Under the pieces are notes generated by a model. It had not been told where the DNA came from. It was given only the letters and a program-made list of their open reading frames with translations, and did no database searches. A program made the position numbers and the translations under genes. A stretch of DNA of 64,000 nt from Escherichia coli (GTDB lineage Bacteria > Pseudomonadota > Gammaproteobacteria > Enterobacterales > Enterobacteriaceae): NCBI RefSeq assembly GCF_013122565.1, contig NZ_CP053258.1. The stretch is one strand, 5' to 3'. Positions 1-39,367 of this stretch are shown here, piece by piece. Within the stretch, counting starts at the first letter, position 1; each line of letters starts with the position of its first letter.

Positions 1-130
1 ACAGGTACAAAAGGCACATGAGGCCTATAAACGTCTGCCTGGCGGTGCGCGTAACGACGCAGGCCCGATGCAGTACCTGATCCCCGGCTGGACCTTTGAC
101 CGTAAACGTCCCGTTTTCGGCCGTCATTGA
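1..130 (+). CDS. gudX: 3' end of glucarate dehydratase-related protein (5'-partial at window edge)
   Basis: Frame-2 translation ...[20 protein letters not shown] is paralogous to the GudD C-terminus and sits directly upstream of gudD as in E. coli. Confidence 0.6.
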
Positions 131-150
131 TTCTGAAAAAGGACATAAAT

Positions 151-1491: not shown

Positions 1492-1502
1492 GACAGAATA
1501 CC

Positions 1503-1531
1503 AAAACCGGCTCTATCTGGAGCCGGTTTGA
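1503..1531 (+). terminator. Rho-independent terminator-like hairpin after gudD
   Basis: aaaccggctc-tatctg-gagccggttt inverted repeat immediately 3' of the gudD stop. Confidence 0.5.
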
Positions 1532-1614
1532 GACTGATGCTAAACGCAAAATAGCCTGTTGTGCTATGTATCAGGTCTACATCATTTTTTAATTCATTGA
1601 ATTTAATTGGTTTT

Positions 1615-1650
1615 GTAGGCCGGATAAGGCGTTAACGCCGCATCCGGCAT
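1615..1650. repeat. REP (repetitive extragenic palindromic) element
   Basis: gtaggccggataaggcgttaacgccgcatccggcat matches the E. coli REP consensus; convergent gudD/barA intergenic. Confidence 0.7.
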
Positions 1651-1722
1651 AAACACAGGCACTTTGTCACCAATCTGAAACCAGCGTCATAAAAAGCCGA
1701 TTGCTACTCGACAAGACGTCCG

Positions 1723-4479
1723 TTACCCGAGAATTTTGCTGGCTTCGCGCGCGACATTATCCATCTCGTCCAACAGTTCCAGCAGCTCCGGCTCCAAATC
1801 TTCTTCTTTAGTACCGCTACGTAGCTGTTGTTCGATCAGTTGGCAGAGATTCTTCATACGCGGCACACCGCTATAGCCGCAACTGCCATGCAGTTTATGA
1901 ATCAAATCAACCAGGCCTTCCGGGTTTTCTCCAACCAGCTGTTCCTCAACTTTGTTGCGAACTTCAGGCAGGAAATCGAGTAACATTTGCAGCATATCGC
2001 GCGCTAAATCGGTTTTTCCTGCTGCCTGGCGTAGTGCCAGTTGCCAGTCGAGGGTCGCATTCGGGTTCACCACAATTTCGTTGACTTCGGGCGTCACGAC
2101 GCGAGAGGAAATACCGCTGCCAGGCTTGTAGCGCAACAACAAATTATGCAATCGCTCTTCTTCAATCGGTTTCGCCAGATAATCGCTCATCCCTGCGCCA
2201 AGCAGCTTCTCTTTTTGCCCGGCCATTGCATGCGCCGTTACCGCGATAACCGGCGTTTGTTGCTGATGGGGGAGCTGGTGGATGAGCTCGCAGGCCCGAA
2301 TGCCATCCATGTCCGGCATTTGAATATCCATTAAGATCAAATCGAACGGCATCTGTTTCGCCCGTTCAACCGCCTGATGCCCGCTATCGCAAAGTTCCAC
2401 ATGTTGCACCATATCTTCCAGCAATGCGCCGATAAGTTTCAGGTTAGCGGGGTTGTCATCAACCGCCATGACTGTCATTGCCAGCTTACTTTCATCGGTT
2501 ACAGGCAAAAGCGTGTTTTGTTTGTGATGACAAAATTCCGTCAGGGCAGGCAACAGGCGCGTAGGTGTTAATGGTTTCAGCAGACACGCGCCGATACCAT
2601 CTTGCTTAAGTTTTTCAGCATTGACTTGTGCATGGCAAGGAAGTGCCAGCATCAGGAAATCGGTCATCGATACCGCTTTCGCTAATCGCTCATGTTGCAT
2701 TGTTAGCGGCTCGCGGAAGGTCACCGCGATGCCTAACAACATCATGTCGTAATGCGCGGGAGGCAGCGCGGAGAACGTTGGGCTATAAACCACTTCCAGC
2801 GGCGTTTCACTTAAAATATCCAGCGTGCATTGCGCTGCTGCGGAGTTTGGTTCGACATAGGCCAGGCGCTTACCTGCGAGGCACTGGGTGGATGGCCCTT
2901 CGATAATAATGTTCGGGTTCAGATCGAGATTAATGTGGAACCAGAAAGTTGAACCGCGATTTGGCTGGCTATGGAACGAAATATCGCCGCCCATTTCATT
3001 AACCAGTTTTTGTGTAATCACCAGCCCCAGCCCGGTGCCACCATGACGGCGGGAAATACTGGCATCAGCCTGTCGGAAGGCCTGGAATAAGCGCGATTGA
3101 TCGCGTTCAGGAATACCAATGCCGGTATCCCGAATCTGCACTTCAATCTGCACTTTGGTATTACTCAGCGCACGTTTTTCTACCAGAATATCAATGTTGC
3201 CATTCTCGGTGAATTTAATTGCATTCCCCACCAGGTTAGTGATGATTTGCTGTAATCGCAGTGGGTCGCCGATCACGTTATCAGGCACGTCGCTTTTAAT
3301 ATTGAGCGTCAGTTCCAACCCTTTATCGTGAGAAGAATGTGCCAGCAGAGTAACGACTTCATCCAGCGTGCTGCGTAGTGGGAATGGAATACTTTCCAGA
3401 ATCAGCTTACCTGCTTCCAGTTTCGAGAAGTCGAGAACATCATTAATAATTGCCAGCAAATTATTTGCTGAACGTTCAATCGTATTCAGGTGATCGCGCT
3501 GCGTTGGTGTTAATTCTGTTTTCAGTGTCAGGCGGGTAAAGCCAATAACACCATTCAGTGGTGTACGCAGCTCGTGTGACATATTTGCCAGAAACTCGGA
3601 TTTAATACGCGCCGCTTCCTGGGCGCGCTTTTTCGCCAGATCCAACTCAACGTTCTGAATTTCCATCTGCTCCAGCGTTTCACGCAGATCGGACGTCGCC
3701 TGGTCGATATTGTGCTGCATCTCTTCGTGATAAGCAGCCAGCGACATTGCCATCGAGTTGATACCGTTTTTCAGCATATCCAGCTCGCCGAGCATAAATC
3801 CTTCCACCCGGCTGTCGAGTTGCCCGCGACGGATGCGGTCGACGGTATTCACCATGTTGCGAATCGGACCGGTTACATCGCGCATTAAGCGCCAGCCAAA
3901 AATAAGCGCAATACCGATACAAAACAGCATCATCACGCTGGAAATAAAGATCTCTTTATATTGCTGCAAGCGAACCGATTTAAGATCCAGCTCAAGCGCA
4001 ATATATCCCAACATATTTTGACTATTTTTGGCATCGCTACTGGGCGATTCGTCGGGGGAATAACTCTCAGAAATAATCGGCGTGCGGAGGATCATAATAT
4101 CGCCGTCACGAGTGACAGTGAGCTGGCGAGGAAACGGCACGTTGCTGCCGAGCTGCATTGATGAGGGATCAAGATGAAAATTGGAGGTGACAAAGAGTCG
4201 GTTATTTTCATCATAAACCGAAATCGCGCGAACAATATCAGAATGGCGACGATGCAGTACGCTTATTAACTGACCGATAGATTCGCGATTTTGCAGGCTC
4301 ATGCCATATTCAGTAGAAACTGCAAGCGGCTCAATAATGCTGGCACCGGCATCTTCCAGTTGACGCTGCAAGTCGTTATAGCGATGCACGACGAAAAAGA
4401 TACTCAGCAATAAACCAATAAGGACGGTCGGTGCCAGGATCAGAATCATCATGCGTGCGCGCAGGCTGTAGTTGGTCAT
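1723..4479 (-). CDS. barA: Hybrid sensor histidine kinase BarA
   Basis: 918 aa ORF with TM N-terminus, HAMP, HisKA (SHELRTPLN), HATPase, receiver and HPt domains. Confidence 0.95.
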
Positions 4480-5884: not shown

Positions 5885-8119
5885 ATGGTTGCGGTAAGAA
5901 GTGCACATATCAATAAGGCTGGTGAATTTGATCCGGAAAAATGGATCGCAAGTCTGGGTATTACCAGCCAGAAGTCGTGTGAGTGCTTAGCCGAAACCTG
6001 GGCGTATTGTCTGCAACAGACGCAGGGGCATCCGGATGCCAGTCTGTTATTGTGGCGTGGTGTTGAGATGGTGGAGATCCTCTCGACATTAAGTATGGAC
6101 ATTGACACGCTGCGGGCGGCGCTGCTTTTCCCTCTGGCGGATGCCAACGTAGTCAGCGAAGATGTGCTGCGTGAGAGCGTCGGTAAGTCGGTCGTTAACC
6201 TTATTCACGGCGTGCGTGATATGGCGGCGATCCGCCAGCTGAAAGCGACGCACACTGATTCTGTTTCCTCCGAACAGGTCGATAACGTTCGCCGGATGTT
6301 ATTGGCGATGGTCGATGATTTTCGCTGCGTGGTCATCAAACTGGCGGAGCGTATTGCTCATCTGCGTGAAGTAAAAGATGCGCCGGAAGATGAACGCGTA
6401 CTGGCGGCAAAAGAGTGCACCAATATCTACGCGCCGTTGGCAAACCGTCTTGGGATTGGGCAACTGAAATGGGAGCTGGAAGATTACTGCTTCCGTTATC
6501 TCCACCCGACCGAATACAAACGCATCGCAAAACTGTTGCATGAACGCCGTCTCGACCGCGAACACTATATCGAAGAGTTTGTCGGTCATCTGCGCGCTGA
6601 GATGAAAGCTGAAGGCGTTAAAGCTGAAGTGTATGGTCGTCCGAAACACATCTACAGCATCTGGCGCAAAATGCAGAAAAAGAACCTCGCCTTCGATGAG
6701 CTGTTTGATGTGCGTGCGGTACGTATTGTCGCCGAGCGTTTACAGGATTGTTATGCCGCACTGGGGATAGTGCACACTCACTATCGCCACCTGCCGGATG
6801 AGTTTGACGATTATGTCGCTAACCCGAAACCAAACGGTTATCAGTCTATTCATACCGTGGTTCTGGGGCCGGGTGGAAAAACCGTTGAGATCCAAATCCG
6901 CACCAAACAGATGCATGAAGATGCAGAGTTGGGTGTTGCTGCGCACTGGAAATATAAAGAGGGCGCGGCAGCTGGCGGCGCACGTTCGGGACATGAAGAC
7001 CGGATTGCCTGGCTGCGTAAACTGATTGCGTGGCAGGAAGAGATGGCTGATTCCGGCGAAATGCTCGACGAAGTACGTAGTCAGGTCTTTGACGACCGGG
7101 TGTACGTCTTTACGCCGAAAGGTGATGTCGTTGATTTGCCTGCGGGATCAACGCCGCTGGACTTCGCTTACCACATCCACAGTGATGTCGGACACCGCTG
7201 CATCGGGGCAAAAATTGGCGGGCGCATTGTGCCGTTCACCTACCAGCTGCAGATGGGCGACCAGATTGAAATTATCACCCAGAAACAGCCGAACCCCAGC
7301 CGTGACTGGTTAAACCCAAACCTCGGTTACGTCACAACCAGCCGTGGGCGTTCGAAAATTCACGCCTGGTTCCGTAAACAGGACCGTGACAAAAACATTC
7401 TGGCTGGGCGGCAAATCCTTGACGACGAGCTGGAACATCTGGGGATCAGCCTGAAAGAAGCAGAAAAACATCTGCTGCCGCGTTACAACTTCAATGATGT
7501 CGACGAGTTGCTGGCGGCGATTGGTGGAGGGGATATCCGTCTCAATCAGATGGTAAACTTCCTGCAATCGCAATTTAATAAGCCGAGTGCCGAAGAGCAG
7601 GACGCCGCCGCGCTGAAGCAACTTCAGCAAAAAAGCTACACGCCGCAAAACCGCAGTAAAGATAACGGTCGTGTGGTGGTTGAAGGTGTCGGTAACCTGA
7701 TGCACCACATCGCGCGCTGCTGCCAGCCGATTCCTGGAGATGAGATTGTCGGCTTCATTACCCAGGGACGCGGTATTTCAGTACACCGCGCCGATTGCGA
7801 ACAACTGGCGGAACTGCGCTCCCATGCGCCAGAACGCATTGTTGACGCGGTATGGGGCGAGAGCTACTCCGCCGGATATTCGCTGGTGGTCCGCGTGGTG
7901 GCTAATGATCGTAGTGGGTTGTTACGTGATATCACGACCATTCTCGCCAATGAGAAAGTGAACGTGCTTGGCGTTGCCAGCCGTAGCGACACCAAACAGC
8001 AACTGGCGACCATCGACATGACCATTGAGATTTACAACCTGCAAGTGCTGGGTCGCGTGCTGGGTAAACTCAACCAGGTGCCGGATGTTATCGACGCGCG
8101 TCGGTTGCACGGGAGTTAG
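5885..8119 (+). CDS. relA: GTP pyrophosphokinase ((p)ppGpp synthetase I)
   Basis: 744 aa; ends ...VPDVIDARRLHGS, typical RelA. Confidence 0.96.
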   Translation: MVAVRSAHINKAGEFDPEKWIASLGITSQKSCECLAETWAYCLQQTQGHPDASLLLWRGVEMVEILSTLSMDIDTLRAALLFPLADANVVSEDVLRESVGKSVVNLIHGVRDMAAIRQLKATHTDSVSSEQVDNVRRMLLAMVDDFRCVVIKLAERIAHLREVKDAPEDERVLAAKECTNIYAPLANRLGIGQLKWELEDYCFRYLHPTEYKRIAKLLHERRLDREHYIEEFVGHLRAEMKAEGVKAEVYGRPKHIYSIWRKMQKKNLAFDELFDVRAVRIVAERLQDCYAALGIVHTHYRHLPDEFDDYVANPKPNGYQSIHTVVLGPGGKTVEIQIRTKQMHEDAELGVAAHWKYKEGAAAGGARSGHEDRIAWLRKLIAWQEEMADSGEMLDEVRSQVFDDRVYVFTPKGDVVDLPAGSTPLDFAYHIHSDVGHRCIGAKIGGRIVPFTYQLQMGDQIEIITQKQPNPSRDWLNPNLGYVTTSRGRSKIHAWFRKQDRDKNILAGRQILDDELEHLGISLKEAEKHLLPRYNFNDVDELLAAIGGGDIRLNQMVNFLQSQFNKPSAEEQDAAALKQLQQKSYTPQNRSKDNGRVVVEGVGNLMHHIARCCQPIPGDEIVGFITQGRGISVHRADCEQLAELRSHAPERIVDAVWGESYSAGYSLVVRVVANDRSGLLRDITTILANEKVNVLGVASRSDTKQQLATIDMTIEIYNLQVLGRVLGKLNQVPDVIDARRLHGS

Positions 8120-8214
8120 TCTTACATAGCTGGATATGGCGTCAGCCGTATCCAGCGATATCTTTTACTCGAAGGTATTACACCTGACAGATCCGCAATT
8201 TTCAGGACAATTCA

Positions 8215-14160: not shown

Positions 14161-14490
14161 TTTATAAGTGTTATAAATGGGTGGAACCTGTAAAGAATTC
14201 CACTCATTTATATTGTTTGTCGCCTCTGAAAACCCCTCTTTTTTGCCCATCCTTGACTAATCATTATCATTCTCTACAAATTCTGTGGCGTTAATTTTTC
14301 GCTGGAGTGAAAATTATTGCGGTAAAGTTTGGTAGATTTTAGTTTGAATAGAGTTATTTTAAATATTTATCTTTTTAATCAATGGATTAAGTGCTCTTTA
14401 ACATAATGGATGTGTTGTTTGTGTGATCCTGTAAAGTTGTTAGATTGTGACTGGCTTAAAAAATCATTAATTAATAATAGGTTATGTTTA
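14161..14490 (+). promoter_or_regulatory. CRISPR leader (AT-rich), ending ...ctggcttaaaaaatcattaattaataataggttatgttta
   Basis: AT-rich block abutting the first repeat; the 3' end matches the E. coli type I-E leader terminus as I recall it. Confidence 0.7.
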
Positions 14491-14702
14491 GAGTTCCCCG
14501 CGCCAGCGGGGATAAACCGGCGATTATAGCGGACTTTCAAGAGAACAGTCTGAGTTCCCCGCGCCAGCGGGGATAAACCGTGGAAAATCACCGACAATAT
14601 TCGACATGGAGAGAGTTCCCCGCGCCAGCGAGGATAAACCGTTATCGGTCATCAACTATAGCGCGTATTTACTAAGTTCCCCGTTCCAACACGAATAATC
14701 CG
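14491..14702 (+). CDS. placeholder
   Basis: placeholder. Confidence 0.
14491..14702 (+). CRISPR. Type I-E CRISPR mini-array: 4 repeats (4th degenerate), 3 spacers of 32 bp
   Basis: Repeats GAGTTCCCCGCGCCAGCGGGGATAAACCG at 14491, 14552, 14613 (one G>A change) and a degenerate copy at 14674; AT-rich leader upstream. Confidence 0.93.
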
Positions 14703-14767
14703 ATAATATCGACGATACCAACCTAATATTATCAAATGTTAAAGGTTCTAATTTAAGAGGAAATTTA

Positions 14768-15031
14768 ATGTCTACGTTAATGGAAAAAGAATCTCTCCTG
14801 AATGGCGTGAGTCAAAATATTGCATTTTTATCAAATGTATCTGAAATGGTTTACAACTCTCAGAATGAAGAGTTGCAGTATGAAATATATGAGCTGGTGA
14901 GTTATAAAGATTATCTATACTCAACAGACCATGAACTTGTTGATTTTCAAGAGGGAGTATTACGATTTCAACAAATTAGAACAAAATACAGGCAAGAGCT
15001 AAAAGAACTCGGTTATCCTGTAGGTAATTAA
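14768..15031 (+). CDS. Hypothetical small protein (87 aa), no recognised family
   Basis: ORF preceded by AAGAGGA Shine-Dalgarno about 7 nt upstream of the ATG; AT-rich codon usage unlike flanking core genes. Confidence 0.5.
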   Translation: MSTLMEKESLLNGVSQNIAFLSNVSEMVYNSQNEELQYEIYELVSYKDYLYSTDHELVDFQEGVLRFQQIRTKYRQELKELGYPVGN

Positions 15032-15393
15032 GAAATATTGTCTTGATGGTGGGGAAACGTAATTTTTTATATTTTAAATATTAGATTAAAACAATAAATT
15101 AATATCATACTTTTATTTTATTCTCGAAAATGCCTAATTTCATTAAATACGTTGTCCTGTAAATGTAAACCGGGCATTTTTCCGCCCGGTCTCCCTCGAT
15201 TACGCTTCTGAGCAGGTCTCGAGCGAATTCACACTCTCCCGTTCAACTTGCATCACCAGTTGGTTAAATTCAGTCAAACTCTCGCTCATAATAATAATGT
15301 CGCAGTCGTCTTCCATGTCATGCCCCAGATATCCAGAACACAACACCCTAACATAGCGTTACTTAAGGGAAATTGACCGCCGACACACTCTTA

Positions 15394-20394: not shown

Positions 20395-20560
20395 ATATTG
20401 CCGGATAAATTAAACGCCTCTGTCAGAAATGATGGGGGCGTTTTTATTTTGCGAGCAGCATTCCTGATTTTAAACGTGAACGCCGCTGGAAGAATTATCA
20501 GGTATAGAATGGCGTCGGGTGCTTGAGGCTGTCTGGCGTTAAGCATTCGCGAGGTTCCAG

Positions 20561-20665
20561 ATGGACAAAAGCCCCAGGCGATATTTCTATCAACCTGAGG
20601 CTTACGTTCGAACCCAAACAATTCGAATGTTAGTCTCTTCTTTGCAGGGAGGCAAGACATGCTGA
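20561..20665 (+). CDS. mok-like leader ORF overlapping the hok start
   Basis: 34-codon ORF whose TGA overlaps the hok ATG (ATGCTGA) in another frame, the arrangement typical of hok/mok loci. Confidence 0.3.
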
Positions 20666-20811
20666 CAAAATATGCCCTTGTGGCAATCATCGTACTGTGT
20701 TGTACAGTACTGGGATTCACGCTGATGGTAGGCGACTCGTTGTGTGAGTTGAGTATCAGAGAACGTGGTATGGAGTTTAAGGCAGTTCTCGCTTACGAAT
20801 CGAAGAAGTAG
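20659..20811 (+). CDS. Hok/Gef-family type I toxin (50 aa small membrane protein)
   Basis: Hand translation [50 protein letters not shown] has the Hok pattern (TM helix, then L-C-E-hydrophobic, then a conserved AYES-type C-terminus); absent from the ORF track because under 60 aa. Confidence 0.75.
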
Positions 20812-20876: not shown

Positions 20877-21048
20877 AATTTATATTATTTATGTGAGTAT
20901 TATGCCTATGTTTATTATTTATATATATTACGGATGAAAATCATTTAATTATTCACAATGTAAATATTTTATTGAAAGATATATGTCACAGATAATTTTT
21001 AATATGTGCGTAAATATCCTTTAAGTTTTACTGAAGGATAAAAATATT

Positions 21049-22392
21049 GTGACTTTCTTTGATTTCTGGGGAAAAACCCGACGTGGCGAGAAAGAAGGGG
21101 GCGACGGCTATCACCTTCTTTGCTGGCATTCGCTGGATGTGGCCGCGATGGGCTATTTAATGGTTAAAAGAAATTGCTTCGGGCTGGCTGACTATTTTCG
21201 TCAATTAGGGATTTCTGACAAGGAACAGGCAGCTCAATTTTTCGCCTGGTTGCTGTGCTGGCACGATATTGGAAAATTTGCCCGCTCTTTTCAACAACTT
21301 TACCTGCCCCCTGAATTCAAGATTCAGGAAGGTGCCAGAAAAAATTACGAAAAAATCTCTCATTCAACGCTGGGCTACTGGTTGTGGAATCATTATTTAA
21401 GTGAATGTCAGGAGTTACTTCCTTCATCTTCGCTCTCTCCGCGCAAACTTAGGCGAGTGATAGAAATGTGGATGCCCGTGACGACAGGGCATCATGGTCG
21501 GCCCCCTGATCGTATGGATGAATTGGATAATTTTCTGCCTGAAGACAAAGCTGCAGCACGAGATTTTCTCCTTGAAATCAAACCACTGTTTCCGCTCATA
21601 GAGATCCCCGCATTCTGGGATGATGATGAGGGCATTGAACTTATAAAACACCTTTCCTGGTATATCTCTGCAACCGTCGTGCTCGCAGACTGGACGGGTT
21701 CGTCAACGCGATTTTTTCCACGCGTCGCACACCCAATGGATATTAAAGGTTACTGGCAGAAAACTTTAGTTCAGGCTCAAAATGCCTTAACCGTCTTTCC
21801 TCTAAAAGCAAAAGTCGCGCCTTTCACCGGAATTAATACGCTGTTTCCTTTTATTGAGAATCCGACACCGTTACAGCAAAAGGTGCTGGATCTGGATATC
21901 AGCCAGCCAGGGCCACAGTTATTTATTCTGGAAGATGTGACTGGCGCAGGTAAAACGGAAGCGGCGCTTATCCTGGCGCACAGGTTGATGGCTGCGGGTA
22001 AAGCGCAGGGTTTGTTTTTTGGCCTGCCAACAATGGCAACGGCCAATGCCATGTATGATCGGCTCGTCAAAACCTGGCTTTCTTTCTATTCGCCAGAATC
22101 TCGCCCCAGCCTGGTGCTGGCACACAGTGCCCGCACATTAATGGACCGCTTTAATGAATCACTCTGGTCCGGTGATTTAATCGGGTCAGAAGAACCGGAT
22201 GAACAAGCTTTCAGCCAGGGTTGTGCGGCCTGGTTTGCCGACAGTAACAAGAAGGCGTTGCTGGCTGAAATTGGCGTCGGCACCCTGGATCAGGCGATGA
22301 TGGCAGTGATGCCGTTTAAACATAATAATCTGCGGCTTCTGGGGCTGAGTAACAAAATCGTGTTCCCCGCGCCAGCGGGGATAAACCGATGA
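21049..22392 (+). pseudogene. cas3: Truncated cas3 (type I-E): HD nuclease domain and helicase motif I only, reading through into the first CRISPR repeat
   Basis: 447-codon ORF with GTG start; HD motif (HSLDV..WHDIGK) and Walker A (DVTGAGKTEA); the frame ends ...[18 protein letters not shown], where the last residues are translated repeat; no DExH motif II or C-terminal domain. Confidence 0.8.
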
Positions 22393-24586
22393 ATATTTGC
22401 GAATATTCGGCAGAAAGCGGGTGTTCCCCGCGCCAGCGGGGATAAACCGAGGTTGCGGCACAAATTGAGGTTGTCGCAAATGTGTTCCCCGCGCCAGCGG
22501 GGATAAACCGCCGACGCAGCAGCGGCAGCAGCGGCAGCAGCGGTGTTCCCCGCGCCAGCGGGGATAAACCGTGGATCAGTGCCGCGTTCTCTCTCCGTGT
22601 AATGTGTTCCCCGCGCCAGCGGGGATAAACCGATCGAGACGGGTACGCGTAAAGCCGAGCTGGCGTGTTCCCCGCGCCAGCGGGGATAAACCGCGATCGG
22701 TTAATTCTTCTACCTGCCTTTGCAGGTGTTCCCCGCGCCAGCGGGGATAAACCGCCCGCAATGCATTCGGGCAGTTCCTTGCCGGGGTGTTCCCCGCGCC
22801 AGCGGGGATAAACCGGAGATTGAGCCAGACGCCCGCCAGGTGTTACTGTGTTCCCCGCGCCAGCGGGGATAAACCGGAAGTAACACACCCAACCCAGGTT
22901 GCGCCAGAGTGTTCCCCGCGCCAGCGGGGATAAACCGCCTGTTTGAGCAGGCGCGAATGAACCGGACCAGTGTTCCCCGCGCCAGCGGGGATAAACCGTC
23001 AGGTAAGCCAGTGTTAGGGGCAATATAGCAGTGTTCCCCGCGCCAGCGGGGATAAACCGTCATCGGCTCGTTATTTGTAGCCAGCACTACGGTGTTCCCC
23101 GCGCCAGCGGGGATAAACCGCTTTATCAGATGGTAAAGGTGAATCAATATGAGTGTTCCCCGCGCCAGCGGGGATAAACCGATACCCCAGCGTTTCGTTA
23201 TATGACGGAAGATGTGTTCCCCGCGCCAGCGGGGATAAACCGTGCAACCAGGACGGCAGGACGCATCGCCAGATGTGTTCCCCGCGCCAGCGGGGATAAA
23301 CCGCACGTTATTATCCGATATTCACCGATAAGCGTGTGTTCCCCGCGCCAGCGGGGATAAACCGTCTGGGCGTAAACAGTCGGATAAATCGCGGGTGTGT
23401 TCCCCGCGCCAGCGGGGATAAACCGGCGGCGTGTGGGGTAACAATCAGGGAGAGAAAGTGTTCCCCGCGCCAGCGGGGATAAACCGGATAAATACAGTAT
23501 ATTCCCGCGCTCTGCTGGCGTGTTCCCCGCGCCAGCGGGGATAAACCGTAGATTTTGTCCGGCTCAGGTGCGCCGATGGTGTGTTCCCCGCGCCAGCGGG
23601 GATAAACCGATCGAGTACAACAAAAAATATACTGAGTGAGTGTGTTCCCCGCGCCAGCGGGGATAAACCGCTGTTTGCTCCTGCTGCTCATTTAGTGATT
23701 TAGTGTTCCCCGCGCCAGCGGGGATAAACCGCCTGTTCTTTTTTAGTCAACTTAACCATGCTCGTGTTCCCCGCGCCAGCGGGGATAAACCGTCTTTTTC
23801 GAGACTTGCAGCAACGCTCTGAAAGTGTTCCCCGCGCCAGCGGGGATAAACCGATCGAGTAGTTTTGAGGGTTGGTGAATTCAGGGTGTTCCCCGCGCCA
23901 GCGGGGATAAACCGCTTAATAAATGGACTTAAGCGCCCAGTATTGGGTGTTCCCCGCGCCAGCGGGGATAAACCGGGGAGGGCGAGCCGCCGTAGGTGCG
24001 GTGAGGGGTGTTCCCCGCGCCAGCGGGGATAAACCGACGCAGAAACTGGTTGAAATAGTTTACGGTGAGTGTTCCCCGCGCCAGCGGGGATAAACCGGCA
24101 GTAAATTATTTGACCTCGTTGATAATCCCGTGTTCCCCGCGCCAGCGGGGATAAACCGGTGGCGGTGTGATTGTGGGACTTATTGCCATCGTGTTCCCCG
24201 CGCCAGCGGGGATAAACCGGGCCTTTTCAGCAGATTAACCGCCGCGATTGCGTGTTCCCCGCGCCAGCGGGGATAAACCGAGAGATTTATATTCTTTCAA
24301 ACCGGATTATATCGTGTTCCCCGCGCCAGCGGGGATAAACCGCTTCAAGAATTTTTAAACGCTGGCTTCAAAATGTGTTCCCCGCGCCAGCGGGGATAAA
24401 CCGTCCCACGCGTGCCAGATGGCGCGTTTGATGGCGTGTTCCCCGCGCCAGCGGGGATAAACCGATGATAACGGCAAAGGGTACGCTACGTACAACGTGT
24501 TCCCCGCGCCAGCGGGGTTAAACTGTGATCCAGTGAGTACCGATCCGGGAACAACCGGTGTTCCTCGCATCAGCGGGGATAAACCG
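22360..24586 (+). CRISPR. Type I-E CRISPR array, 37 recognisable repeats and 36 spacers, no adjacent cas operon or leader
   Basis: 29-bp repeat GTGTTCCCCGCGCCAGCGGGGATAAACCG at 61-bp period from 22360; spacers 32 bp except two of 33 bp (after repeats 19 and 32); repeats 36 and 37 degenerate; a possible further decayed copy near 24619..24648. Confidence 0.97.
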
Positions 24587-24668
24587 GGTGCACTGGATGC
24601 GATGATGGATATCACTTGGCGTTCCCCCGCCCCTGCGGTAGAACTCCCAGCTCCCATTTTCAAACCCA

Positions 24669-25706
24669 TCAAGACGCCTTCGCCAACTCCTTCACCAGAG
24701 GTAGCATTATCCGCATAACGTCACGGCAGCGACGTTCTATTCTTCCAGGAAGTGCCTTATCAATATGCTGTTGATTATCCAGTCTTACGTCATGCCAGCT
24801 ATTTCCCGCAGGGAATGCGGCTGTTTTTGCGCGTTGCTGATAACCATCCTTATTCCCAAGATTCCAGTTAGTCGCTTCCACCGAAAGTACAGCAATGCCC
24901 GCTTTGTCGAATATTTCGGCGTCATTACAACATCCAGTGCCTTTCGGATAATTTTTATTCAAACCCGGATTGGTCGTTGCGGCAATTCCATGACTACGCG
25001 CAATTGCCAGCGCCCTGTCGCGCGTTAATTTCCTTACTGCTTCAGGGGTTTTTACACCGCTGTTGAAATACAATTTATCGCCAACAATTAAGTTATCGAG
25101 ATTAATCACCAGCAGCGTATTTTTCTTTTCGGTGTCACTCATCCGCTTGAGTAAATTCTCAGCGCCTAATTTTCCTTCCTCTTCGCCGCTGGTCGCCACA
25201 AATCGAATACCATACTCGGTAGGCGTATTTTTCAGGCGTTCTGCCAGTTCCAGCATGACACCTAAACCTGCGGCGTTATCATCTATTCCTTGTAACGTCA
25301 GTCCGCCGAGATTGGCATCGGCGTCAGCATCGCTCAGCGGGGCGTAAGTATCCAGATGCGCCATAATGATGATCTGCTGCGGCGCTTTGCCTTCATGAGC
25401 GGCAATCACCGTACTTCCCGTCACGTTATGCCAGCTCTTACGATTATCGCGGGCGGTATAAATATATCGACTATTAAATGTCCGAATATCACTGCGATAA
25501 CCCATTTGCTGAAACTGTTGGCGAATATAATCGGCAGATAACATTTCTGCAGGAGTTCCGGTCATGCGTCCCGGAAAGAAAGTAGCAATATGTCGTGCCT
25601 GGGTATTAGCAAAATCGCCAGGTTTAGGTGACGAGGCGTGTACGGGGAGAATAAAGCATACGCCGAGCGCCAGGGCAGCGGTACGGTGGCGCAATGCGGA
25701 AAACAT
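24669..25706 (-). CDS. iap: Alkaline phosphatase isozyme conversion aminopeptidase
   Basis: 345 aa; signal peptide plus M28-type peptidase; adjacent to the distal end of the array as in E. coli. Confidence 0.93.
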   Translation of the reverse strand: MFSALRHRTAALALGVCFILPVHASSPKPGDFANTQARHIATFFPGRMTGTPAEMLSADYIRQQFQQMGYRSDIRTFNSRYIYTARDNRKSWHNVTGSTVIAAHEGKAPQQIIIMAHLDTYAPLSDADADANLGGLTLQGIDDNAAGLGVMLELAERLKNTPTEYGIRFVATSGEEEGKLGAENLLKRMSDTEKKNTLLVINLDNLIVGDKLYFNSGVKTPEAVRKLTRDRALAIARSHGIAATTNPGLNKNYPKGTGCCNDAEIFDKAGIAVLSVEATNWNLGNKDGYQQRAKTAAFPAGNSWHDVRLDNQQHIDKALPGRIERRCRDVMRIMLPLVKELAKAS

Positions 25707-35743: not shown

Positions 35744-35780
35744 AAGGCCAGTCTCAAGCGAGGCTGGCCTTTTTTCTTTT
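35744..35780 (+). terminator. rpoS rho-independent terminator
   Basis: aaaggccag-tctcaagcgagg-ctggccttttttctttt. Confidence 0.7.
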
Positions 35781-35847
35781 GTTTGGGAAGCATGTGTTTT
35801 TGTCGCCTGGATAAGACACGTCAGCGTCCTACCCGGCAATCAGCATT

Positions 35848-36255
35848 CTATGTGTTCATCATCTTGCGCACCAACTGCATAAACAGCTCCTGCTCTTCTG
35901 CACTCAAACGCCCCAAAAATTCCTCATCCACGCTGTCACCAATGGGGATCGCCGCAGCAAGTACCTTTTCTCCTTCGGCAGTCAGCCAGACAAAGCGTCG
36001 CCGCTTGTCAGCGGCGTCATGTTCACGTCTGACTAAGCCACGATTTTCCATTCTTGCCAACATTTCTGCCAGCGTTGCTTTGGTGCTGACTGCTGCTTCT
36101 ATCAGTGCCACCTGTTCGATACCAGGCTTATCAGCAATGGCGCGCATCACCGCGTACTGTGGTTTGGTCAGGTCAGGTAACTCGTGCTGCCAGCGAGCCG
36201 TGTGCTGCTGAAAAAGCTGTCGTAACTGATGGAACGCTTTATTTCGTAACGCCAT
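35848..36255 (-). CDS. MarR/SlyA-family transcriptional regulator
   Basis: 135 aa; winged-helix MarR-like sequence; divergent from the decarboxylase genes. Confidence 0.8.
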   Translation of the reverse strand: MALRNKAFHQLRQLFQQHTARWQHELPDLTKPQYAVMRAIADKPGIEQVALIEAAVSTKATLAEMLARMENRGLVRREHDAADKRRRFVWLTAEGEKVLAAAIPIGDSVDEEFLGRLSAEEQELFMQLVRKMMNT

Positions 36256-36370
36256 GTAAACTCCGGGCTAATTCTCTGCCGCTATCATAGCGGTTTTTCA
36301 GTGACGAAGAAGATGTTGTTACTTTTCAGCGCTTGCCGCGATGAAAACAGAGGCGTATTTTAATAATAAC

Positions 36371-36384
36371 GTTCGTATACGAAC
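36371..36384. promoter_or_regulatory. Candidate operator: perfect 14-bp palindrome GTTCGTATACGAAC
   Basis: Perfect inverted repeat about 18 bp upstream of the UbiX-like start, in the divergent intergenic region with the MarR-family gene. Confidence 0.4.
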
Positions 36385-36401
36385 AATTTAGAGAGTAAGC
36401 A

Positions 36402-36995
36402 ATGAAACTGATCGTCGGGATGACAGGGGCCACCGGAGCGCCTCTTGGTGTGGCATTACTGCAAGCACTGCGGGAGATGCCGAATGTCGAGACTCATCTG
36501 GTGATGTCGAAGTGGGCGAAAACCACCATTGAACTGGAAACGCCTTACAGCGCCCGCGATGTTGCTGCCCTCGCTGACTTCAGCCATAACCCGGCGGATC
36601 AGGCGGCGACCATCTCCTCAGGTTCCTTTCGTACCGACGGCATGATCGTTATTCCGTGCAGTATGAAAACGCTCGCAGGTATCCGTGCCGGTTACGCCGA
36701 TGGCCTGGTAGGGCGCGCGGCGGACGTCGTGCTCAAAGAAGGCCGCAAACTGGTGCTGGTGCCGCGTGAAATGCCGCTTAGCACCATCCATCTCGAAAAT
36801 ATGCTCGCACTTTCACGCATGGGCGTGGCGATGGTGCCGCCGATGCCTGCCTTTTATAACCATCCCGAAACGGTAGATGACATTGTCCACCATGTGGTAG
36901 CCCGCGTGTTGGATCAATTTGGCCTCGAACATCCCCACGCCAGGCGCTGGCAAGGATTGCCGCAGGCCCTGAATTTTTCTCAGGAGAATGAATAA
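36402..36995 (+). CDS. UbiX/Pad1-family flavin prenyltransferase (decarboxylase B subunit)
   Basis: 197 aa; MKLIVGMTGATGA... flavoprotein fold of the UbiX family. Confidence 0.85.
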   Translation: MKLIVGMTGATGAPLGVALLQALREMPNVETHLVMSKWAKTTIELETPYSARDVAALADFSHNPADQAATISSGSFRTDGMIVIPCSMKTLAGIRAGYADGLVGRAADVVLKEGRKLVLVPREMPLSTIHLENMLALSRMGVAMVPPMPAFYNHPETVDDIVHHVVARVLDQFGLEHPHARRWQGLPQALNFSQENE

Positions 36996-38422
36996 TGGCA
37001 TTTGATGATTTACGCAGCTTTTTACTGGCGCTTGATGACCACGGCCAGTTACTGAAAATCAGCGAAGAGGTGAACGCGGAACCGGATCTGGCAGCAGCAG
37101 CTAACGCCACCGGGCGTATCGGCGATGGCGCGCCCGCGCTGTGGTTTGATAATATTCGCGGTTTTACCGATGCGCGCGTGGCGATGAATACCATCGGTTC
37201 CTGGCAGAACCACGCGATTTCCCTCGGCCTGCCGCCAAACACGCCGGTCAAAAAGCAGATTGATGAGTTTATCCGCCGCTGGGATAACTTCCCGATCGCC
37301 CCGGAGCGCCGCGCCAATCCAGCCTGGGCGCAGAACACCGTCGATGGCGACGAGATTAACCTGTTCGATATTCTGCCGCTGTTTCGTTTAAACGACGGTG
37401 ATGGCGGTTTCTATCTCGATAAAGCGTGCGTGGTTTCCCGCGACCCGCTCGATCCGGATAACTTCGGCAAGCAGAACGTCGGTATCTACCGCATGGAAGT
37501 GAAGGGCAAACGTAAGCTCGGCCTGCAACCGGTGCCGATGCACGATATCGCCCTGCATCTGCATAAAGCGGAAGAGCGCGGTGAAGATCTGCCGATTGCG
37601 ATCACCCTCGGTAACGATCCGATCATCACCCTGATGGGCGCCACCCCGCTGAAATACGATCAGTCTGAGTACGAAATGGCGGGCGCACTGCGCGAAAGCC
37701 CGTACCCGATCGCTACCGCGCCATTGACCGGTTTTGACGTGCCGTGGGGTTCTGAAGTGATCCTCGAAGGCGTTATCGAAAGCCGCAAACGTGAAATCGA
37801 AGGGCCATTCGGTGAGTTTACCGGCCACTACTCCGGCGGGCGTAACATGACCGTGGTGCGCATCGATAAAGTCTCTTACCGCACCAGGCCGATTTTCGAA
37901 TCGCTGTACCTCGGCATGCCGTGGACCGAAATCGACTACCTGATGGGGCCTGCCACCTGCGTGCCGCTTTACCAGCAACTGAAAGCCGAGTTCCCGGAAG
38001 TGCAGGCGGTAAACGCCATGTACACCCACGGCCTGCTGGCGATTATCTCCACCAAAAAACGCTACGGCGGCTTTGCCCGCGCGGTGGGGCTGCGAGCAAT
38101 GACAACGCCGCATGGTTTGGGCTACGTGAAGATGGTGATTATGGTCGATGAAGACGTTGATCCGTTCAACCTGCCACAGGTGATGTGGGCGCTCTCCTCG
38201 AAAGTGAACCCGGCGGGCGACCTGGTGCAGTTGCCGAATATGTCCGTGCTGGAACTCGACCCAGGTTCAAGCCCGGCGGGGATCACCGACAAGCTGATTA
38301 TCGACGCCACCACGCCTGTTGCCCCGGACAACCGTGGTCACTACAGCCAGCCGGTGGTGGATTTACCGGAAACCAAAGCCTGGGCTGAAAAACTGACCGC
38401 TATGCTGGCCGCACGTAAATAA
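36995..38422 (+). CDS. UbiD-family (prenyl-FMN-dependent) aromatic acid decarboxylase, C subunit
   Basis: 475 aa; translationally coupled to the UbiX-like gene (ATAATGG overlap). Confidence 0.85.
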   Translation: MAFDDLRSFLLALDDHGQLLKISEEVNAEPDLAAAANATGRIGDGAPALWFDNIRGFTDARVAMNTIGSWQNHAISLGLPPNTPVKKQIDEFIRRWDNFPIAPERRANPAWAQNTVDGDEINLFDILPLFRLNDGDGGFYLDKACVVSRDPLDPDNFGKQNVGIYRMEVKGKRKLGLQPVPMHDIALHLHKAEERGEDLPIAITLGNDPIITLMGATPLKYDQSEYEMAGALRESPYPIATAPLTGFDVPWGSEVILEGVIESRKREIEGPFGEFTGHYSGGRNMTVVRIDKVSYRTRPIFESLYLGMPWTEIDYLMGPATCVPLYQQLKAEFPEVQAVNAMYTHGLLAIISTKKRYGGFARAVGLRAMTTPHGLGYVKMVIMVDEDVDPFNLPQVMWALSSKVNPAGDLVQLPNMSVLELDPGSSPAGITDKLIIDATTPVAPDNRGHYSQPVVDLPETKAWAEKLTAMLAARK

Positions 38423-38432
38423 GGAGAACAAG

Positions 38433-38669
38433 ATGATTTGTCCACGTTGTGCCGATGAACAGATTGAAGTGATGGCGAAATCGCCGGTGAAAGATGTCTG
38501 GACGGTCTACCAGTGCCAGCATTGCCTTTATACCTGGCGCGATACCGAACCGCTACGCCGCACCAGTCGCGAACATTACCCGGAAGCGTTTCGCATGACG
38601 CAGAAAGATATTGATGATGCGCCAATGGTGCCGAGCATCCCGCCGCTGCTGGCGGCAGATAAGCGTTAA
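38433..38669 (+). CDS. Small zinc-ribbon decarboxylase subunit (D subunit)
   Basis: 78 aa with two CxxC pairs (CPRC ... CQHC); third gene of a B-C-D decarboxylase operon. Confidence 0.75.
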   Translation: MICPRCADEQIEVMAKSPVKDVWTVYQCQHCLYTWRDTEPLRRTSREHYPEAFRMTQKDIDDAPMVPSIPPLLAADKR

Positions 38670-38710
38670 TAAAAAAGTGCTGGGTAGAGGCTTTGCTTTA
38701 CCCGGCCACG

Positions 38711-39367
38711 TTATTTAATTTTATAAAACGATAACCGTCCACTCTCCGGCGAGCCGGTATCAATATAAACTTGATTGGCAAATGTCTGGATATTGGTAAA
38801 CATCATATGCCCGAAGATAAAACAGTCTGCACCGTTTATTTCTTTTAACTCTCCCTTGAATGATTTCTGCACGCGATCAACAGGCCAGAGTAATTCTCTT
38901 TCTGCTATTTCTTTACCAAACTGATATTCATCACCCGGATAATCCGCATGTGCGATGACATATTTTATTCTGTCGTTAGTGATTTCAATAATATGTGGAA
39001 GGTGATGAAATTTCAGCAACAGATCTATTGCCTCTTGTTGCTCTGAATCATTTAAATCGAAAAACCAGTCACCACCGCTGGCAAGCCACATGTTGCCATC
39101 GCCGGTCGCGAACGCATCCAGCGCCATTGCTTCGTGGTTGCCTTTAACGGAGATAAACCAGGGCTGGTTTAGCAGGCGCAGGACGCTAAGACTCTCCGGC
39201 CCACGATCAATATTATCGCCGACAGAAATAAGTAAGTCGGTTTCGGGGAAAAAAGAGAGTTGATGTAAACGGGATTGTAATAACTGATATTCACCATGAA
39301 TATCACCAACGACCCATATATGGCGATAGTGACGGGCATTGATTTTTTGATAGCGTGTAGATGGCAT
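38711..39367 (-). CDS. pphB: Serine/threonine protein phosphatase 2 (lambda-phosphatase-like)
   Basis: 218 aa; metallophosphatase motifs GDIHG, GDNIDRG, GNHE; adjacent to mutS. Confidence 0.88.
   Translation of the reverse strand: MPSTRYQKINARHYRHIWVVGDIHGEYQLLQSRLHQLSFFPETDLLISVGDNIDRGPESLSVLRLLNQPWFISVKGNHEAMALDAFATGDGNMWLASGGDWFFDLNDSEQQEAIDLLLKFHHLPHIIEITNDRIKYVIAHADYPGDEYQFGKEIAERELLWPVDRVQKSFKGELKEINGADCFIFGHMMFTNIQTFANQVYIDTGSPESGRLSFYKIK

What the first reader, a model, noticed from the sequence alone, without database searches (positions are those of the whole stretch)
22360..24586. Spacer content of the long array: 36 spacers, two of 33 bp, one low-complexity
Stepping through the array at 61-bp period gives repeats at 22360, 22421 and so on to 24558. 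The spacers after repeats 19 and 32 are 33 bp rather than 32 bp. Spacer 3 (22511..22542) is a GCAGCGGCA-type trinucleotide repeat, unusual for a phage-derived protospacer. The two distal repeats carry several substitutions and a third decayed copy may lie at about 24619..24648, which fits a leader end that was on the cas3 side. The spacer set is a historical record of invaders and may identify the lineage.
Basis: seen in the sequence. Interest (0 to 1): 0.35.

Follow-up and report, generated by a model that had tools for sequence, protein, structure and literature searches.

The report
Orphaned E. coli CRISPR spacer array
This is an ordinary Escherichia coli type I-E CRISPR array whose 36 spacers record past prophage and plasmid encounters; it is stranded and probably inactive, because a deletion removed its leader and every cas gene except the first half of cas3.

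Summary
There are 37 repeats of 29 nt (35 identical) at 22360..24586 and 36 spacers. Spacers 19 and 32 are 33 nt. Spacer 3 is CCGAC(GCAGCAGCG)x3. The last two repeats carry 2 and 3 substitutions. A further decayed repeat at 24619..24647 is conserved in other E. coli.

It is the E. coli CRISPR2.1 array (cysH-iap locus) of the non-K-12 "E1/leader-A" variant. Eight spacers have identifiable sources:
- two hit recE of a Rac-like prophage;
- three hit one myovirus prophage;
- one hits pMT1/SSU5-like plasmids;
- one hits an Enterobacter plasmid;
- one overlaps a spacer of another strain.

Six of seven protospacers carry the ATG PAM expected for this variant. None of 5,426 complete E. coli genomes shares the array. 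Spacer 3's source was not found.

The array is orphaned: cas3 is cut at nt 1353 and fused exactly to base 1 of the first repeat, with no leader and no other cas genes. The kind is already known, and interest in the spacer content is low.

One thing deserves follow-up. Twelve different cas3 truncations in E. coli, Salmonella and relatives are all fused exactly to repeat base 1, the Cas1-Cas2 cleavage site. None has a PAM in register, and the six E. coli junctions that could be compared with an intact cas3 share at most 1 nt with the repeat.

The parts
22360..24586 (+). CRISPR2.1 array, type I-E, CRISPR-A repeat variant: 37 repeats of 29 nt and 36 spacers. The crRNA sense strand is +.
   Evidence: repeat parsing; PAM orientation; position between cysH and iap, as in K-12.
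24587..24647 (+). Conserved trailer: a 32-nt fossil spacer (24587-24618) plus a decayed 38th repeat (24619-24647).
   Evidence: alignment and background score; the same trailer in K-12 and NT1F10.
21006..22359 (+). cas3 remnant, E1 variant, 97% identical to strain NT1F10 cas3. The start codon is ATG>GTG, with a 1-nt insertion near the start. It is truncated at cas3 nt 1353, just before helicase motif II (LLADEIH), and fused directly to base 1 of repeat 1. The longest ORF (21049-22392) reads into repeat 1 and spacer 1 (...NKI|[10 protein letters not shown]).
22389..22420 (+). Spacer 1, next to the deletion junction, so the newest surviving spacer. It overlaps spacer 11 of E. coli PS10-3 shifted by 3 nt, and its first three bases (ATG) are that protospacer's PAM. 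Its source element is unknown.
   Evidence: no exact hit in IMG/VR.
22511..22542 (+). Spacer 3, low complexity: CCGAC(GCAGCAGCG)x3, 78% GC. Frame 3 reads D-A9. Source not identified.
   Evidence: weak lead.
23487..23519 (+). Spacer 19, 33 nt.
23671..23702 (+). Spacer 22: 32/32 match with ATG PAM in the exodeoxyribonuclease VIII (recE) gene of a Rac-like prophage next to ttcA in E. coli STEC384.
23732..23763 (+). Spacer 23: 31/32 match with ACG PAM in Enterobacter sp. plasmid pJBIWA008_2 (88 kb).
23793..23824 (+). Spacer 24: 32/32 match with ATG PAM, in the same recE gene and on the same strand, 830 bp from the spacer 22 target.
23976..24007 (+). Spacer 27: 31/32 match with ATG PAM in the gene after the tail assembly gene of a lambda-head/P2-tail prophage beside yodB (strains CFSAN061769 and SE11). 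It matches phage vB_EcoM-569R10 at 29/32.
24098..24129 (+). Spacer 29: 29/32 match with ATG PAM in the GPW/gp25 baseplate gene of the same prophage. The identical spacer also sits in other, unrelated E. coli arrays, the most widely shared of the three such spacers (most of the 68 genomes); it is the newest spacer in NT1F10.
24281..24313 (+). Spacer 32, 33 nt: 31/33 match with ATG PAM downstream of the tail-fibre gene of the same prophage, on the same strand.
24343..24374 (+). Spacer 33: 30/32 match with ATG PAM in a small hypothetical gene of Yersinia pestis pMT1 and of about 100-120 kb non-mobilizable plasmids (IncFIB replicon in the two records inspected) of E. coli and Salmonella. Calling these SSU5/pHCM2-type phage-plasmids is my own knowledge.
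24497..24586 (+). Degenerate repeats 36 (2 substitutions) and 37 (3 substitutions), flanking spacer 36.
20517..20811 (+). hok/sok toxin-antitoxin module upstream of cas3, a marker of the E1 arrangement: sok RNA at 20517-20674, hok ORF at 20659-20811.
   Evidence: Rfam RF01794, 113 bits; PMC3903273.
24669..25706 (-). iap, the conserved gene on the trailer side.
14380..14702 (+). Second I-E array (CRISPR2.3 position): an intact leader, 3 GAGTTCC-type repeats, 2 spacers and a decayed fourth repeat.

Best explanation
The region is the chromosomal CRISPR2.1 array of an Escherichia coli type I-E system, of the non-K-12 variant (cas-E1, leader-A, CRISPR-A repeats).

How it was built (inferred from the known I-E pathway). 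While the system was active, Cas1-Cas2 added 32-33-nt spacers at the cas3/leader end. The spacers came from temperate phages and large plasmids and were taken next to an ATG (AWG) PAM. Several were taken in runs from the same element and the same strand, which is the signature of primed adaptation.

How it was stranded (shown). A single deletion later removed the 3' half of cas3, casABCDE, cas1, cas2 and the leader. It joined cas3 nt 1353 to the first base of a repeat.

What it does now (inferred). The array has no leader promoter, no integration site context and no Cas6e or Cascade in cis. It can neither acquire spacers nor make crRNAs, so it is a frozen record. Its length and its 35 identical repeats suggest the loss is recent.
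For: - Anatomy. 37 repeats, a 61-nt period, a palindromic core and terminal degenerate repeats.
- Locus. The order is cysJIH - hok/sok - cas3' - array - iap - cysDN, syntenic with K-12 at 97.6-99% identity.
- Variant. The cas3 remnant is 97% identical to E1-type cas3 and has no blastn match to K-12 cas3. hok/sok is present, as PMC3903273 reports for every arrangement except E2. The repeats start GTG, which is the CRISPR-A type.
- Protospacers. S22 and S24 match at 32/32. S27 (31/32), S29 (29/32) and S32 (31/33) hit one prophage on one strand. S33 matches at 30/32 and S23 at 31/32. Six of these seven have ATG at -3..-1 (P about 1e-10 by chance). PMC3737337 reports CAT (ATG on this strand) as the commonest PAM of leader-A arrays.
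- Orphan state. cas3 homology stops at the repeat, no leader sequence is present, and the rest of the window is K-12-like with no cas genes.
- Precedent. Touchon and Rocha 2010 describe Salmonella and Shigella genomes in which only a cas3 pseudogene remains. They also note that arrays usually shrink after cas loss.
Against: - 28 of 36 spacers have no identified source, so 'phage and plasmid record' is shown for under a quarter of them.
- Inactivity is inferred from gene content within 64 kb. cas genes elsewhere in the genome cannot be excluded.
- Read-through transcription from the cas3 promoter into the array is possible and was not tested. The promoter scan was no better than chance.
- Primed adaptation is inferred from clustering and strand bias in only two target elements.
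Confidence: 0.9

Rival explanations
1. The cas operon was lost through a Cas1-Cas2 integrase side reaction. A chromosomal 3'-OH end on the + strand inside cas3 (a broken, resected or nascent strand) attacked the leader-repeat phosphodiester, the normal first integration site. This joined cas3 directly to repeat base 1, and replication fixed the deletion. It is a hypothesis about how the array became orphaned. It is compatible with the best explanation of what the array is.
For: - Twelve different cas3 breakpoints are all fused exactly to repeat base 1. In E. coli they are nt 1196, 1353 (this window), 1470, 1486, 1569, about 1671 and 2046. Five more are in Salmonella enterica (including subsp. 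arizonae CP000880) and relatives.
- If right ends fell at random in the 61-nt period, the chance of this is about (1/61)^11.
- At the six E. coli junctions that could be compared with an intact cas3, microhomology with the repeat is 0-1 nt.
- Deletions in the same operon that end inside other cas genes show 1, 4 and 11 nt of overlap.
- The polarity fits established integrase chemistry (my knowledge): the incoming 3'-OH is ligated to the 5' end of the repeat on the leader-containing strand.
Against: - There is no experimental support, and I found no paper describing it in the full-text searches aimed at it.
- It does not explain why the left ends cluster in cas3. None of 17 truncated or fused CasA proteins ended in repeat-coded peptide, and the one casA-to-array deletion seen ends inside a repeat (L011).
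- Sampling was driven by cas3 similarity, so the distribution of left ends is biased.
Confidence: 0.35
2. The junction arose from autoimmunity. A spacer was acquired from cas3 itself, and homologous recombination between that spacer and its cas3 protospacer deleted everything in between.
For: This would also give a cas3 sequence running exactly up to a repeat. Loss of cas function as an escape from self-targeting is a known outcome, as far as I recall.
Against: None of the 12 junctions has ATG or AAG 32-33 nt upstream of the repeat. By contrast, 6 of 7 real protospacers of this array do, and about 82% of experimental acquisitions by this variant do (37 of 45, PMC3737337).
Confidence: 0.04
3. 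The deletion is ordinary illegitimate or IS-mediated recombination, and the exact repeat boundary in this window is coincidence.
For: IS-mediated loss is the published explanation for most E. coli CRISPR-I rearrangements (PMC3903273). Many other deletions in this operon have non-repeat endpoints.
Against: There is no IS at the junction. The same exact boundary recurs at 12 different breakpoints.
Confidence: 0.1
4. The array is still functional, served in trans by I-E cas genes elsewhere in the genome.
For: The second array at 14491-14641 keeps an intact leader. 35 of 37 repeats are undamaged.
Against: In E. coli and Salmonella, I-E cas genes were found only beside this array (PMC2886076). No cas genes are in the window. 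The long array has no leader or promoter.
Confidence: 0.04
5. Spacer 3 is not a genuine invader-derived spacer. It is either a sequencing or assembly artefact or a host-derived low-complexity fragment.
For: No exact source was found in IMG/VR, JGI metagenomes or 100,044 species genomes. Its 27-nt core occurs in 115 unrelated, mostly high-GC contigs.
Against: It is exactly 32 nt, keeps the 61-nt register and has a non-repetitive 5' CCGAC. Its alanine frame matches, at 26/32, the poly-Ala stretch of the tail-fibre gene of the prophage targeted by S27, S29 and S32, on the same strand. BLAST low-complexity masking prevented a search of E. coli genomes, so absence is not shown there.
Confidence: 0.15

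Closest known systems
E. coli CRISPR2.1 array of the CRISPR-I locus, cas-E1 / leader-A / CRISPR-A variant (O157:H7- and E24377A-type; Diez-Villasenor 2013, Almendros 2014)
   Same: Same chromosomal site (cysH-iap), the same 29-nt GTGTTCC... repeat, 32/33-nt spacers, ATG-dominated PAM, hok/sok upstream of cas3, and the same conserved trailer.
   Different: The leader and seven and a half of the eight cas genes are missing. The spacer set is not shared with any of 5,426 complete genomes; only single, independently acquired spacers are in common.
E. coli K-12 CRISPR I (cas-E2 / leader-T)
   Same: Homologous locus, a near-identical repeat, and the same terminal repeat and fossil trailer.
   Different: K-12 repeats start GAG, its PAM is AAG only, its cas3 is too divergent to align by blastn, and it has only a sokX remnant where the window has hok/sok.
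Orphan I-E arrays after cas loss (E. coli BL21/REL606; Salmonella SPB7 and Shigella flexneri with only a cas3 pseudogene; Touchon and Rocha 2010)
   Same: An array retained without cas genes. In the Salmonella and Shigella cases a cas3 remnant is the only survivor.
   Different: The BL21 loss is attributed to flanking IS elements; here there is no IS. Relic loci usually keep only a few repeats, whereas this one keeps 37.
Cas1-Cas2 spacer integration at the leader-repeat junction
   Same: The deletion junction sits on exactly the phosphodiester that the integrase attacks first, with the polarity of an incoming 3' end (established biochemistry, my knowledge).
   Different: The joined DNA is the chromosome's own cas3 rather than a 33-nt prespacer. 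No repeat duplication or second-site reaction is visible.

Membership tests
Type I-E CRISPR array (E. coli CRISPR2 family) | A 29-nt (28+1) repeat with the CCCCGCG...CGCGGGG-type palindromic core and ATAAACCG 3' handle | tested here: met
   35 exact and 2 near copies of GTGTTCCCCGCGCCAGCGGGGATAAACCG.
Type I-E CRISPR array (E. coli CRISPR2 family) | Unique spacers of 32 nt (rarely 33) giving a 61-nt period | tested here: met
   34 spacers of 32 nt and 2 of 33 nt. No two spacers are alike at the 12-mismatch threshold used. About 4-5% long spacers are expected.
Type I-E CRISPR array (E. coli CRISPR2 family) | Protospacers in mobile elements flanked by a 5' AWG PAM on the spacer-sense strand | tested here: met
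   ATG for S22, S24, S27, S29, S32 and S33; ACG for S23.
Type I-E CRISPR array (E. coli CRISPR2 family) | An A/T-rich leader with promoter and IHF site next to the first repeat | tested here: not met
   cas3 coding sequence runs up to base 1 of repeat 1. The leader seen in NT1F10 and K-12 is absent.
Type I-E CRISPR array (E. coli CRISPR2 family) | An adjacent cas3-casABCDE-cas1-cas2 operon | tested here: not met
   Only cas3 nt 1-1353 remains. The rest of the window is K-12-like with no cas genes. The locus is a member by descent, but orphaned.
Type I-E CRISPR array (E. coli CRISPR2 family) | Transcription and Cas6e processing into 61-nt crRNAs | not testable with these tools
   No expression data. 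The promoter scan was at chance level.
CRISPR2.1, cas-E1 / leader-A variant | Located between iap and cysH, with hok/sok upstream of cas3 | tested here: met
   criterion taken from PMC3903273.
CRISPR2.1, cas-E1 / leader-A variant | CRISPR-A repeats (GGAACAC end, i.e. a GTG start) and E1-type cas genes | tested here: met
   All 37 repeats start GTG. The cas3 remnant is 95-97% identical to E1 cas3 and has no blastn match to K-12 cas3.
CRISPR2.1, cas-E1 / leader-A variant | Conserved ancestral trailer-end spacers shared within the species | tested here: not met
   S34-S36 were found in no other genome. Only the fossil spacer and decayed repeat beyond repeat 37 are shared.
Integrase-generated junction (hypothesis) | Junction exactly at the leader-proximal boundary of a repeat, with the incoming strand upstream, no PAM and no microhomology | tested here: met
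   All 12 distinct breakpoints lie at repeat base 1 and none has AWG in register. Microhomology with the repeat was checked only for the 6 E. coli junctions that could be compared with an intact cas3, and is 0-1 nt.
Integrase-generated junction (hypothesis) | Dependence on catalytically active Cas1-Cas2 | not testable with these tools
   Needs genetics.

The most novel reading that the evidence does not exclude
Enterobacterial type I-E systems repeatedly delete their own cas operon through a Cas1-Cas2-catalysed reaction. [quoted passage not shown] The window is one instance. At least eleven other independent instances exist in E. coli, Salmonella enterica (including subsp. arizonae) and relatives. 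That would make the adaptation integrase a direct cause of CRISPR-Cas loss and of orphan arrays.
Probability: 0.35. Interest if true: 0.65.

Novelty: already known. Interest (0 to 1): 0.33.

Why it matters
The finding as given is routine. E. coli CRISPR2.1 arrays, their AWG PAM, occasional long spacers, degenerate terminal repeats and frequent cas loss are all documented.

Its practical value is as a strain marker and as a small catalogue of what this lineage met: a Rac-like prophage, a lambda-head/P2-tail prophage, pMT1/SSU5-like plasmids and an Enterobacter-type plasmid. The spacer set is unique among 5,426 complete genomes.

The part that could matter more is the junction. If the exact cas3-to-repeat fusion, seen here and at eleven other breakpoints in several species, is made by the Cas1-Cas2 integrase, it gives a concrete and testable mechanism for two old observations. 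One is that CRISPR-Cas loci are lost often. The other is that orphan arrays beside a cas3 stump are common in Enterobacteriaceae.

Tried and rejected
- Spacer 3 source. Exact searches of IMG/VR, JGI metagenomes and GTDB species genomes (30-mer) found nothing. A PAM plus codon-degenerate pattern in IMG/VR gave 7 unrelated contigs, mostly high-GC, with 8-11 mismatches. The 27-nt core gave 115 hits in unrelated taxa (mostly high-GC), none among the 80 listed being enterobacterial. BLAST tools mask this spacer, so E. coli genomes, phages and plasmids could not be searched for it.
- Sources of spacers 1 and 2. No exact hit in IMG/VR.
- Lineage identification. None of the following found a relative carrying this array:
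  - a spacer search of 5,426 genomes;
  - exact look-up of the truncated Cas3 ORF;
  - exact look-up of the iap allele, which is very common and linked to many different arrays;
  - the junction 34-mer in metagenomes.
- Shared ancestry with arrays holding S14, S29, S31 or an S1-like spacer. Rejected, because each is a single shared spacer at a different position with no shared neighbours.
- Self-targeting as the trigger for cas loss. No spacer matches the window or an intact E1 operon at up to 8 mismatches.
- A Chi site as the determinant of the cas3 breakpoints. The correctly oriented Chi sites lie at cas3 nt 2531 and in cas5e, not next to the breakpoints.
- Rfam. Only sok was found. No family matched the array.
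- Promoter and terminator scan. No better than shuffled sequence.
- Literature. The full-text searches aimed at it found no description of the precise cas3-repeat fusion. Touchon and Rocha 2010 and Almendros 2014 describe cas3 relics and IS-mediated loss only.
Full report
**Observation**

Reading 22100-24900 and matching the consensus GTGTTCCCCGCGCCAGCGGGGATAAACCG with mismatches allowed gives 37 repeats from 22360 to 24586 and 36 spacers.
- Repeats 1-35 are identical. Repeat 36 has 2 substitutions and repeat 37 has 3.
- All spacers are 32 nt except spacer 19 (23487-23519) and spacer 32 (24281-24313), which are 33 nt.
- Spacer 3 (22511-22542) is CCGAC followed by three exact GCAGCAGCG units.
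- Exactly 32 nt after repeat 37, 24619-24647 aligns to the consensus at about 20 of 29 positions with two indels. Only 0.25% of nearby 29-mers score as well.
- This fossil spacer plus decayed repeat is present almost unchanged in K-12 and in strain NT1F10, so it is an old, species-wide trailer.

**Genomic setting**

The window is collinear with E. coli K-12 from gudD to hypF at 97.6-99% identity. The local order is cysJ, cysI, cysH, hok/sok (Rfam sok at 113 bits; hok ORF at 20659-20811), a cas3 fragment, the array, iap on the opposite strand, then cysD and cysN. This is the CRISPR-I locus that holds the CRISPR2.1 array.

The cas3 fragment has no blastn match to K-12 cas3 but is 95-97% identical to the other E. 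coli variant. That variant is called E1 by Almendros et al. 2014, who report hok/sok in every arrangement except E2 (PMC3903273). The repeats start GTG, which is the 'CRISPR-A' type that Diez-Villasenor et al. 2013 link to leader-A and non-K-12 cas genes (PMC3737337).

**Spacer sources and PAM**

I joined the 36 spacers with N spacers and searched four ways:
- complete E. coli genomes, near-exact;
- the same genomes, word size 11;
- 50,697 phage records;
- 72,556 plasmids.

I then scanned the fetched loci locally for every spacer and read the three bases upstream.

| Spacer | Match | PAM | Target |
|---|---|---|---|
| S22 | 32/32 | ATG | recE/exodeoxyribonuclease VIII of a Rac-like prophage next to ttcA in strain STEC384 |
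| S24 | 32/32 | ATG | same gene, 830 bp away, same strand |
| S27 | 31/32 | ATG | lambda-head/P2-tail prophage beside yodB in strains CFSAN061769 and SE11 |
| S29 | 29/32 | ATG | same prophage, same strand |
| S32 | 31/33 | ATG | same prophage, same strand |
| S33 | 30/32 | ATG | small gene of Y. pestis pMT1 and of 100-120 kb E. coli and Salmonella plasmids |
| S23 | 31/32 | ACG | 88-kb Enterobacter plasmid |

S27, S29 and S32 span 12.6 kb of the prophage. S27 and S29 also match phage vB_EcoM-569R10 at 29/32.

Six ATG out of seven has a chance probability of about 1e-10. It also matches the published bias of leader-A arrays: CAT on the opposite strand in 34 of 55 protospacers. The PAM position fixes the + strand as the crRNA sense strand and the cas3 side as the leader side.

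Two and three spacers from single elements, on one strand, inserted close together in the array, is what primed adaptation produces. This is an inference.

**Spacers shared with other arrays**

Spacer 1 overlaps spacer 11 of strain PS10-3 with a 3-nt shift, so its first three bases are that protospacer's ATG PAM. S14, S29 and S31 occur in other E. coli arrays, but singly, at other positions and without shared neighbours. These are repeated independent acquisitions, not common descent. No other spacer, including the three oldest, is found in any of 5,426 complete genomes. The array therefore does not place the strain in a known CRISPR type.

**Spacer 3**

I could not find its source.
- Exact searches of IMG/VR, JGI metagenomes and one genome per species all failed.
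- A degenerate pattern gave only unrelated contigs, mostly high-GC.
- The 27-nt core is common in unrelated, mostly high-GC genomes (115 contigs). That shows only that such coding repeats are frequent.

In frame 3 the spacer reads Asp-Ala9. The tail-fibre N-terminal-domain gene of the same prophage that S27, S29 and S32 target contains Ser-Ala9 in the same frame and strand, matching 26 of 32 bases but without an ATG in register. That makes a phage tail-fibre allele a reasonable source, but it is not shown.

The spacer keeps the exact 32-nt length and has a unique 5' end, which argues against an artefact.

The 33-nt spacers are ordinary. About 4-5% of natural spacers are one base long, and S32 aligns over all 33 bases to its target.

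**The orphan state**

Alignment to intact E1 operons (strains EC596 and PS10-3) shows that cas3 homology ends at nt 1353 of 2700. This is just before helicase motif II, and the next base is the G that starts repeat 1. Neither the roughly 96-bp leader seen in NT1F10 nor any part of casA-cas2 is present. cas3 also has a GTG in place of its ATG and a 1-nt insertion near the start.

No spacer matches the window or an E1 operon, so self-targeting by a surviving spacer is not the cause.

Without the leader, Cas1-Cas2, Cas6e and Cascade, the array should be unable to grow or to make crRNAs. This is inference from gene content. Touchon and Rocha 2010 found I-E cas genes only beside this array. They also noted that arrays usually shrink once only relics of cas remain (PMC2886076). 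A 37-repeat array with 35 perfect repeats therefore suggests a recent loss.

**A pattern beyond this window**

While comparing junctions I found that other E. coli genomes have cas3 cut at different places, each followed immediately by base 1 of a repeat:

| cas3 breakpoint | Strain(s) |
|---|---|
| nt 1196 | MFDS1016424 |
| nt 1470 | LHM10-1 and XJ5.2 |
| nt 1486 | strain 20 |
| nt 1569 | STEC384 |
| nt 2046 | 88-3493 and WEC |

A protein search with the truncated Cas3 found further truncated forms ending in repeat-encoded peptide ([17 protein letters not shown] or VPRASGDKP, according to frame). DNA look-ups confirmed exact base-1 fusions at six more breakpoints:
- one in an E. coli-type contig with hok;
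- two with cysH-sopD contexts typical of Salmonella;
- S. enterica subsp. arizonae CP000880;
- two other enterobacterial contigs.

That makes 12 distinct breakpoints, all at the same phosphodiester. If right ends were random within the 61-nt unit, the probability is about (1/61)^11.

At the six E. coli junctions that could be compared with an intact cas3, the junction shares 0-1 nt with the repeat start. None of the 12 has ATG or AAG 32-33 nt upstream. The absence of a PAM argues against recombination between a cas3-derived spacer and cas3.

Deletions of the same operon that end elsewhere behave differently:
- cas3 to cas5e: 11 nt of overlap;
- cas3 to cas6e: 4 nt of overlap;
- cas3 to cas2: 1 nt of overlap;
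- casA to the array: ends inside a repeat.

None of 17 truncated or fused CasA proteins ends in repeat-coded peptide.

The only enzyme known to cut exactly there is the Cas1-Cas2 integrase. Its chemistry (my knowledge) joins an incoming 3'-OH to the 5' end of the repeat on the leader-containing strand, and that polarity matches the observed junctions. I therefore propose, as an inference with about one-third probability, that these deletions are integrase side reactions using a chromosomal 3' end in cas3.

Two things are unexplained:
- why the left ends favour cas3;
- why some lie within a few bases of each other in different genera. The window and S. arizonae are 5 nt apart. nt 1466, 1470 and 1486 form another cluster.

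Chi sites do not account for the positions. I found no description of this pattern in the searches made. Published accounts stress IS elements.

**Verdict**

The finding is a correct description of a well-known kind of element. Its interpretation is supported apart from the unresolved origin of spacer 3 and the failure of the spacer set to identify a lineage. Interest in the spacer content itself is low. The recurrent exact cas3-repeat fusion is the one item that deserves a follow-up.

Noticed in passing
window 22359/22360; also loci L005-L010, L033, L149-L155: cas3 is truncated at 12 different positions in E. coli, Salmonella enterica (including subsp. arizonae CP000880) and relatives. In every case it is fused exactly to base 1 of a CRISPR repeat. 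None has a PAM in register, and the six E. coli junctions checked against an intact cas3 share at most 1 nt with the repeat. That phosphodiester is the Cas1-Cas2 first cleavage site.
   Followed up: partly
window 22345-22359; L154 (S. arizonae); L005, L006, L032: Breakpoints in cas3 cluster. The window and S. arizonae differ by 5 nt, just before helicase motif II. Three independent E. coli events lie at nt 1466, 1470 and 1486. E. coli nt 2046 and a Salmonella event are about 18 nt apart. This may be a hotspot or chance.
   Followed up: no
window 14380-14702: A second I-E array at the CRISPR2.3 position: intact leader, three GAGTTCC-type repeats (the third with one substitution), two spacers and a decayed fourth repeat. 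It is also orphaned.
   Followed up: partly
window 14582-15288: The 11.6-kb ygcN-ygcE segment of K-12 is absent. It is replaced by 0.7 kb of A/T-rich sequence with an 87-aa ORF (14768-15031) of unknown function, directly after the small array.
   Followed up: no
window 8119-8173: The mazEF toxin-antitoxin genes present in K-12 between relA and mazG are missing. Only about 54 nt lie between the flanks.
   Followed up: no
window 35773-38714: In the rpoS-mutS interval, K-12's 6.1-kb ygbI-ygbN block is replaced by a different 2.9-kb segment with ORFs of 197 and 475 aa. This is a known polymorphic region as far as I recall.
   Followed up: no
window 20517-20811: A hok/sok module, apparently intact, lies directly upstream of the cas3 stump (sok Rfam 113 bits; hok 50 aa with one substitution relative to NT1F10). 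It could limit how far leftward viable deletions can extend.
   Followed up: partly
window 21000-21060: The cas3 stump has GTG in place of the annotated ATG start, and a 1-nt insertion a few codons later. The gene was therefore also damaged at its 5' end.
   Followed up: partly
window 22389-22420 versus L016 4502-4533: Spacer 1 and spacer 11 of E. coli PS10-3 come from the same protospacer, offset by 3 nt, so spacer 1 contains the other spacer's ATG PAM. This is an independent, shifted acquisition from an unidentified element.
   Followed up: partly
proteins P0001, P0002, P0123, P0124, P0214 (public E. coli and relatives): In-frame fusion proteins Cas3-Cas7, Cas3-Cas1, CasA-Cas7 and CasA-Cas1 are present in many assemblies. 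Internal deletions of the I-E operon are therefore frequent and varied.
   Followed up: no
L006 and L011 arrays: Two other E. coli arrays carry a tandem duplicated spacer (the last two spacers of LHM10-1; spacers 3-4 of EC596).
   Followed up: no
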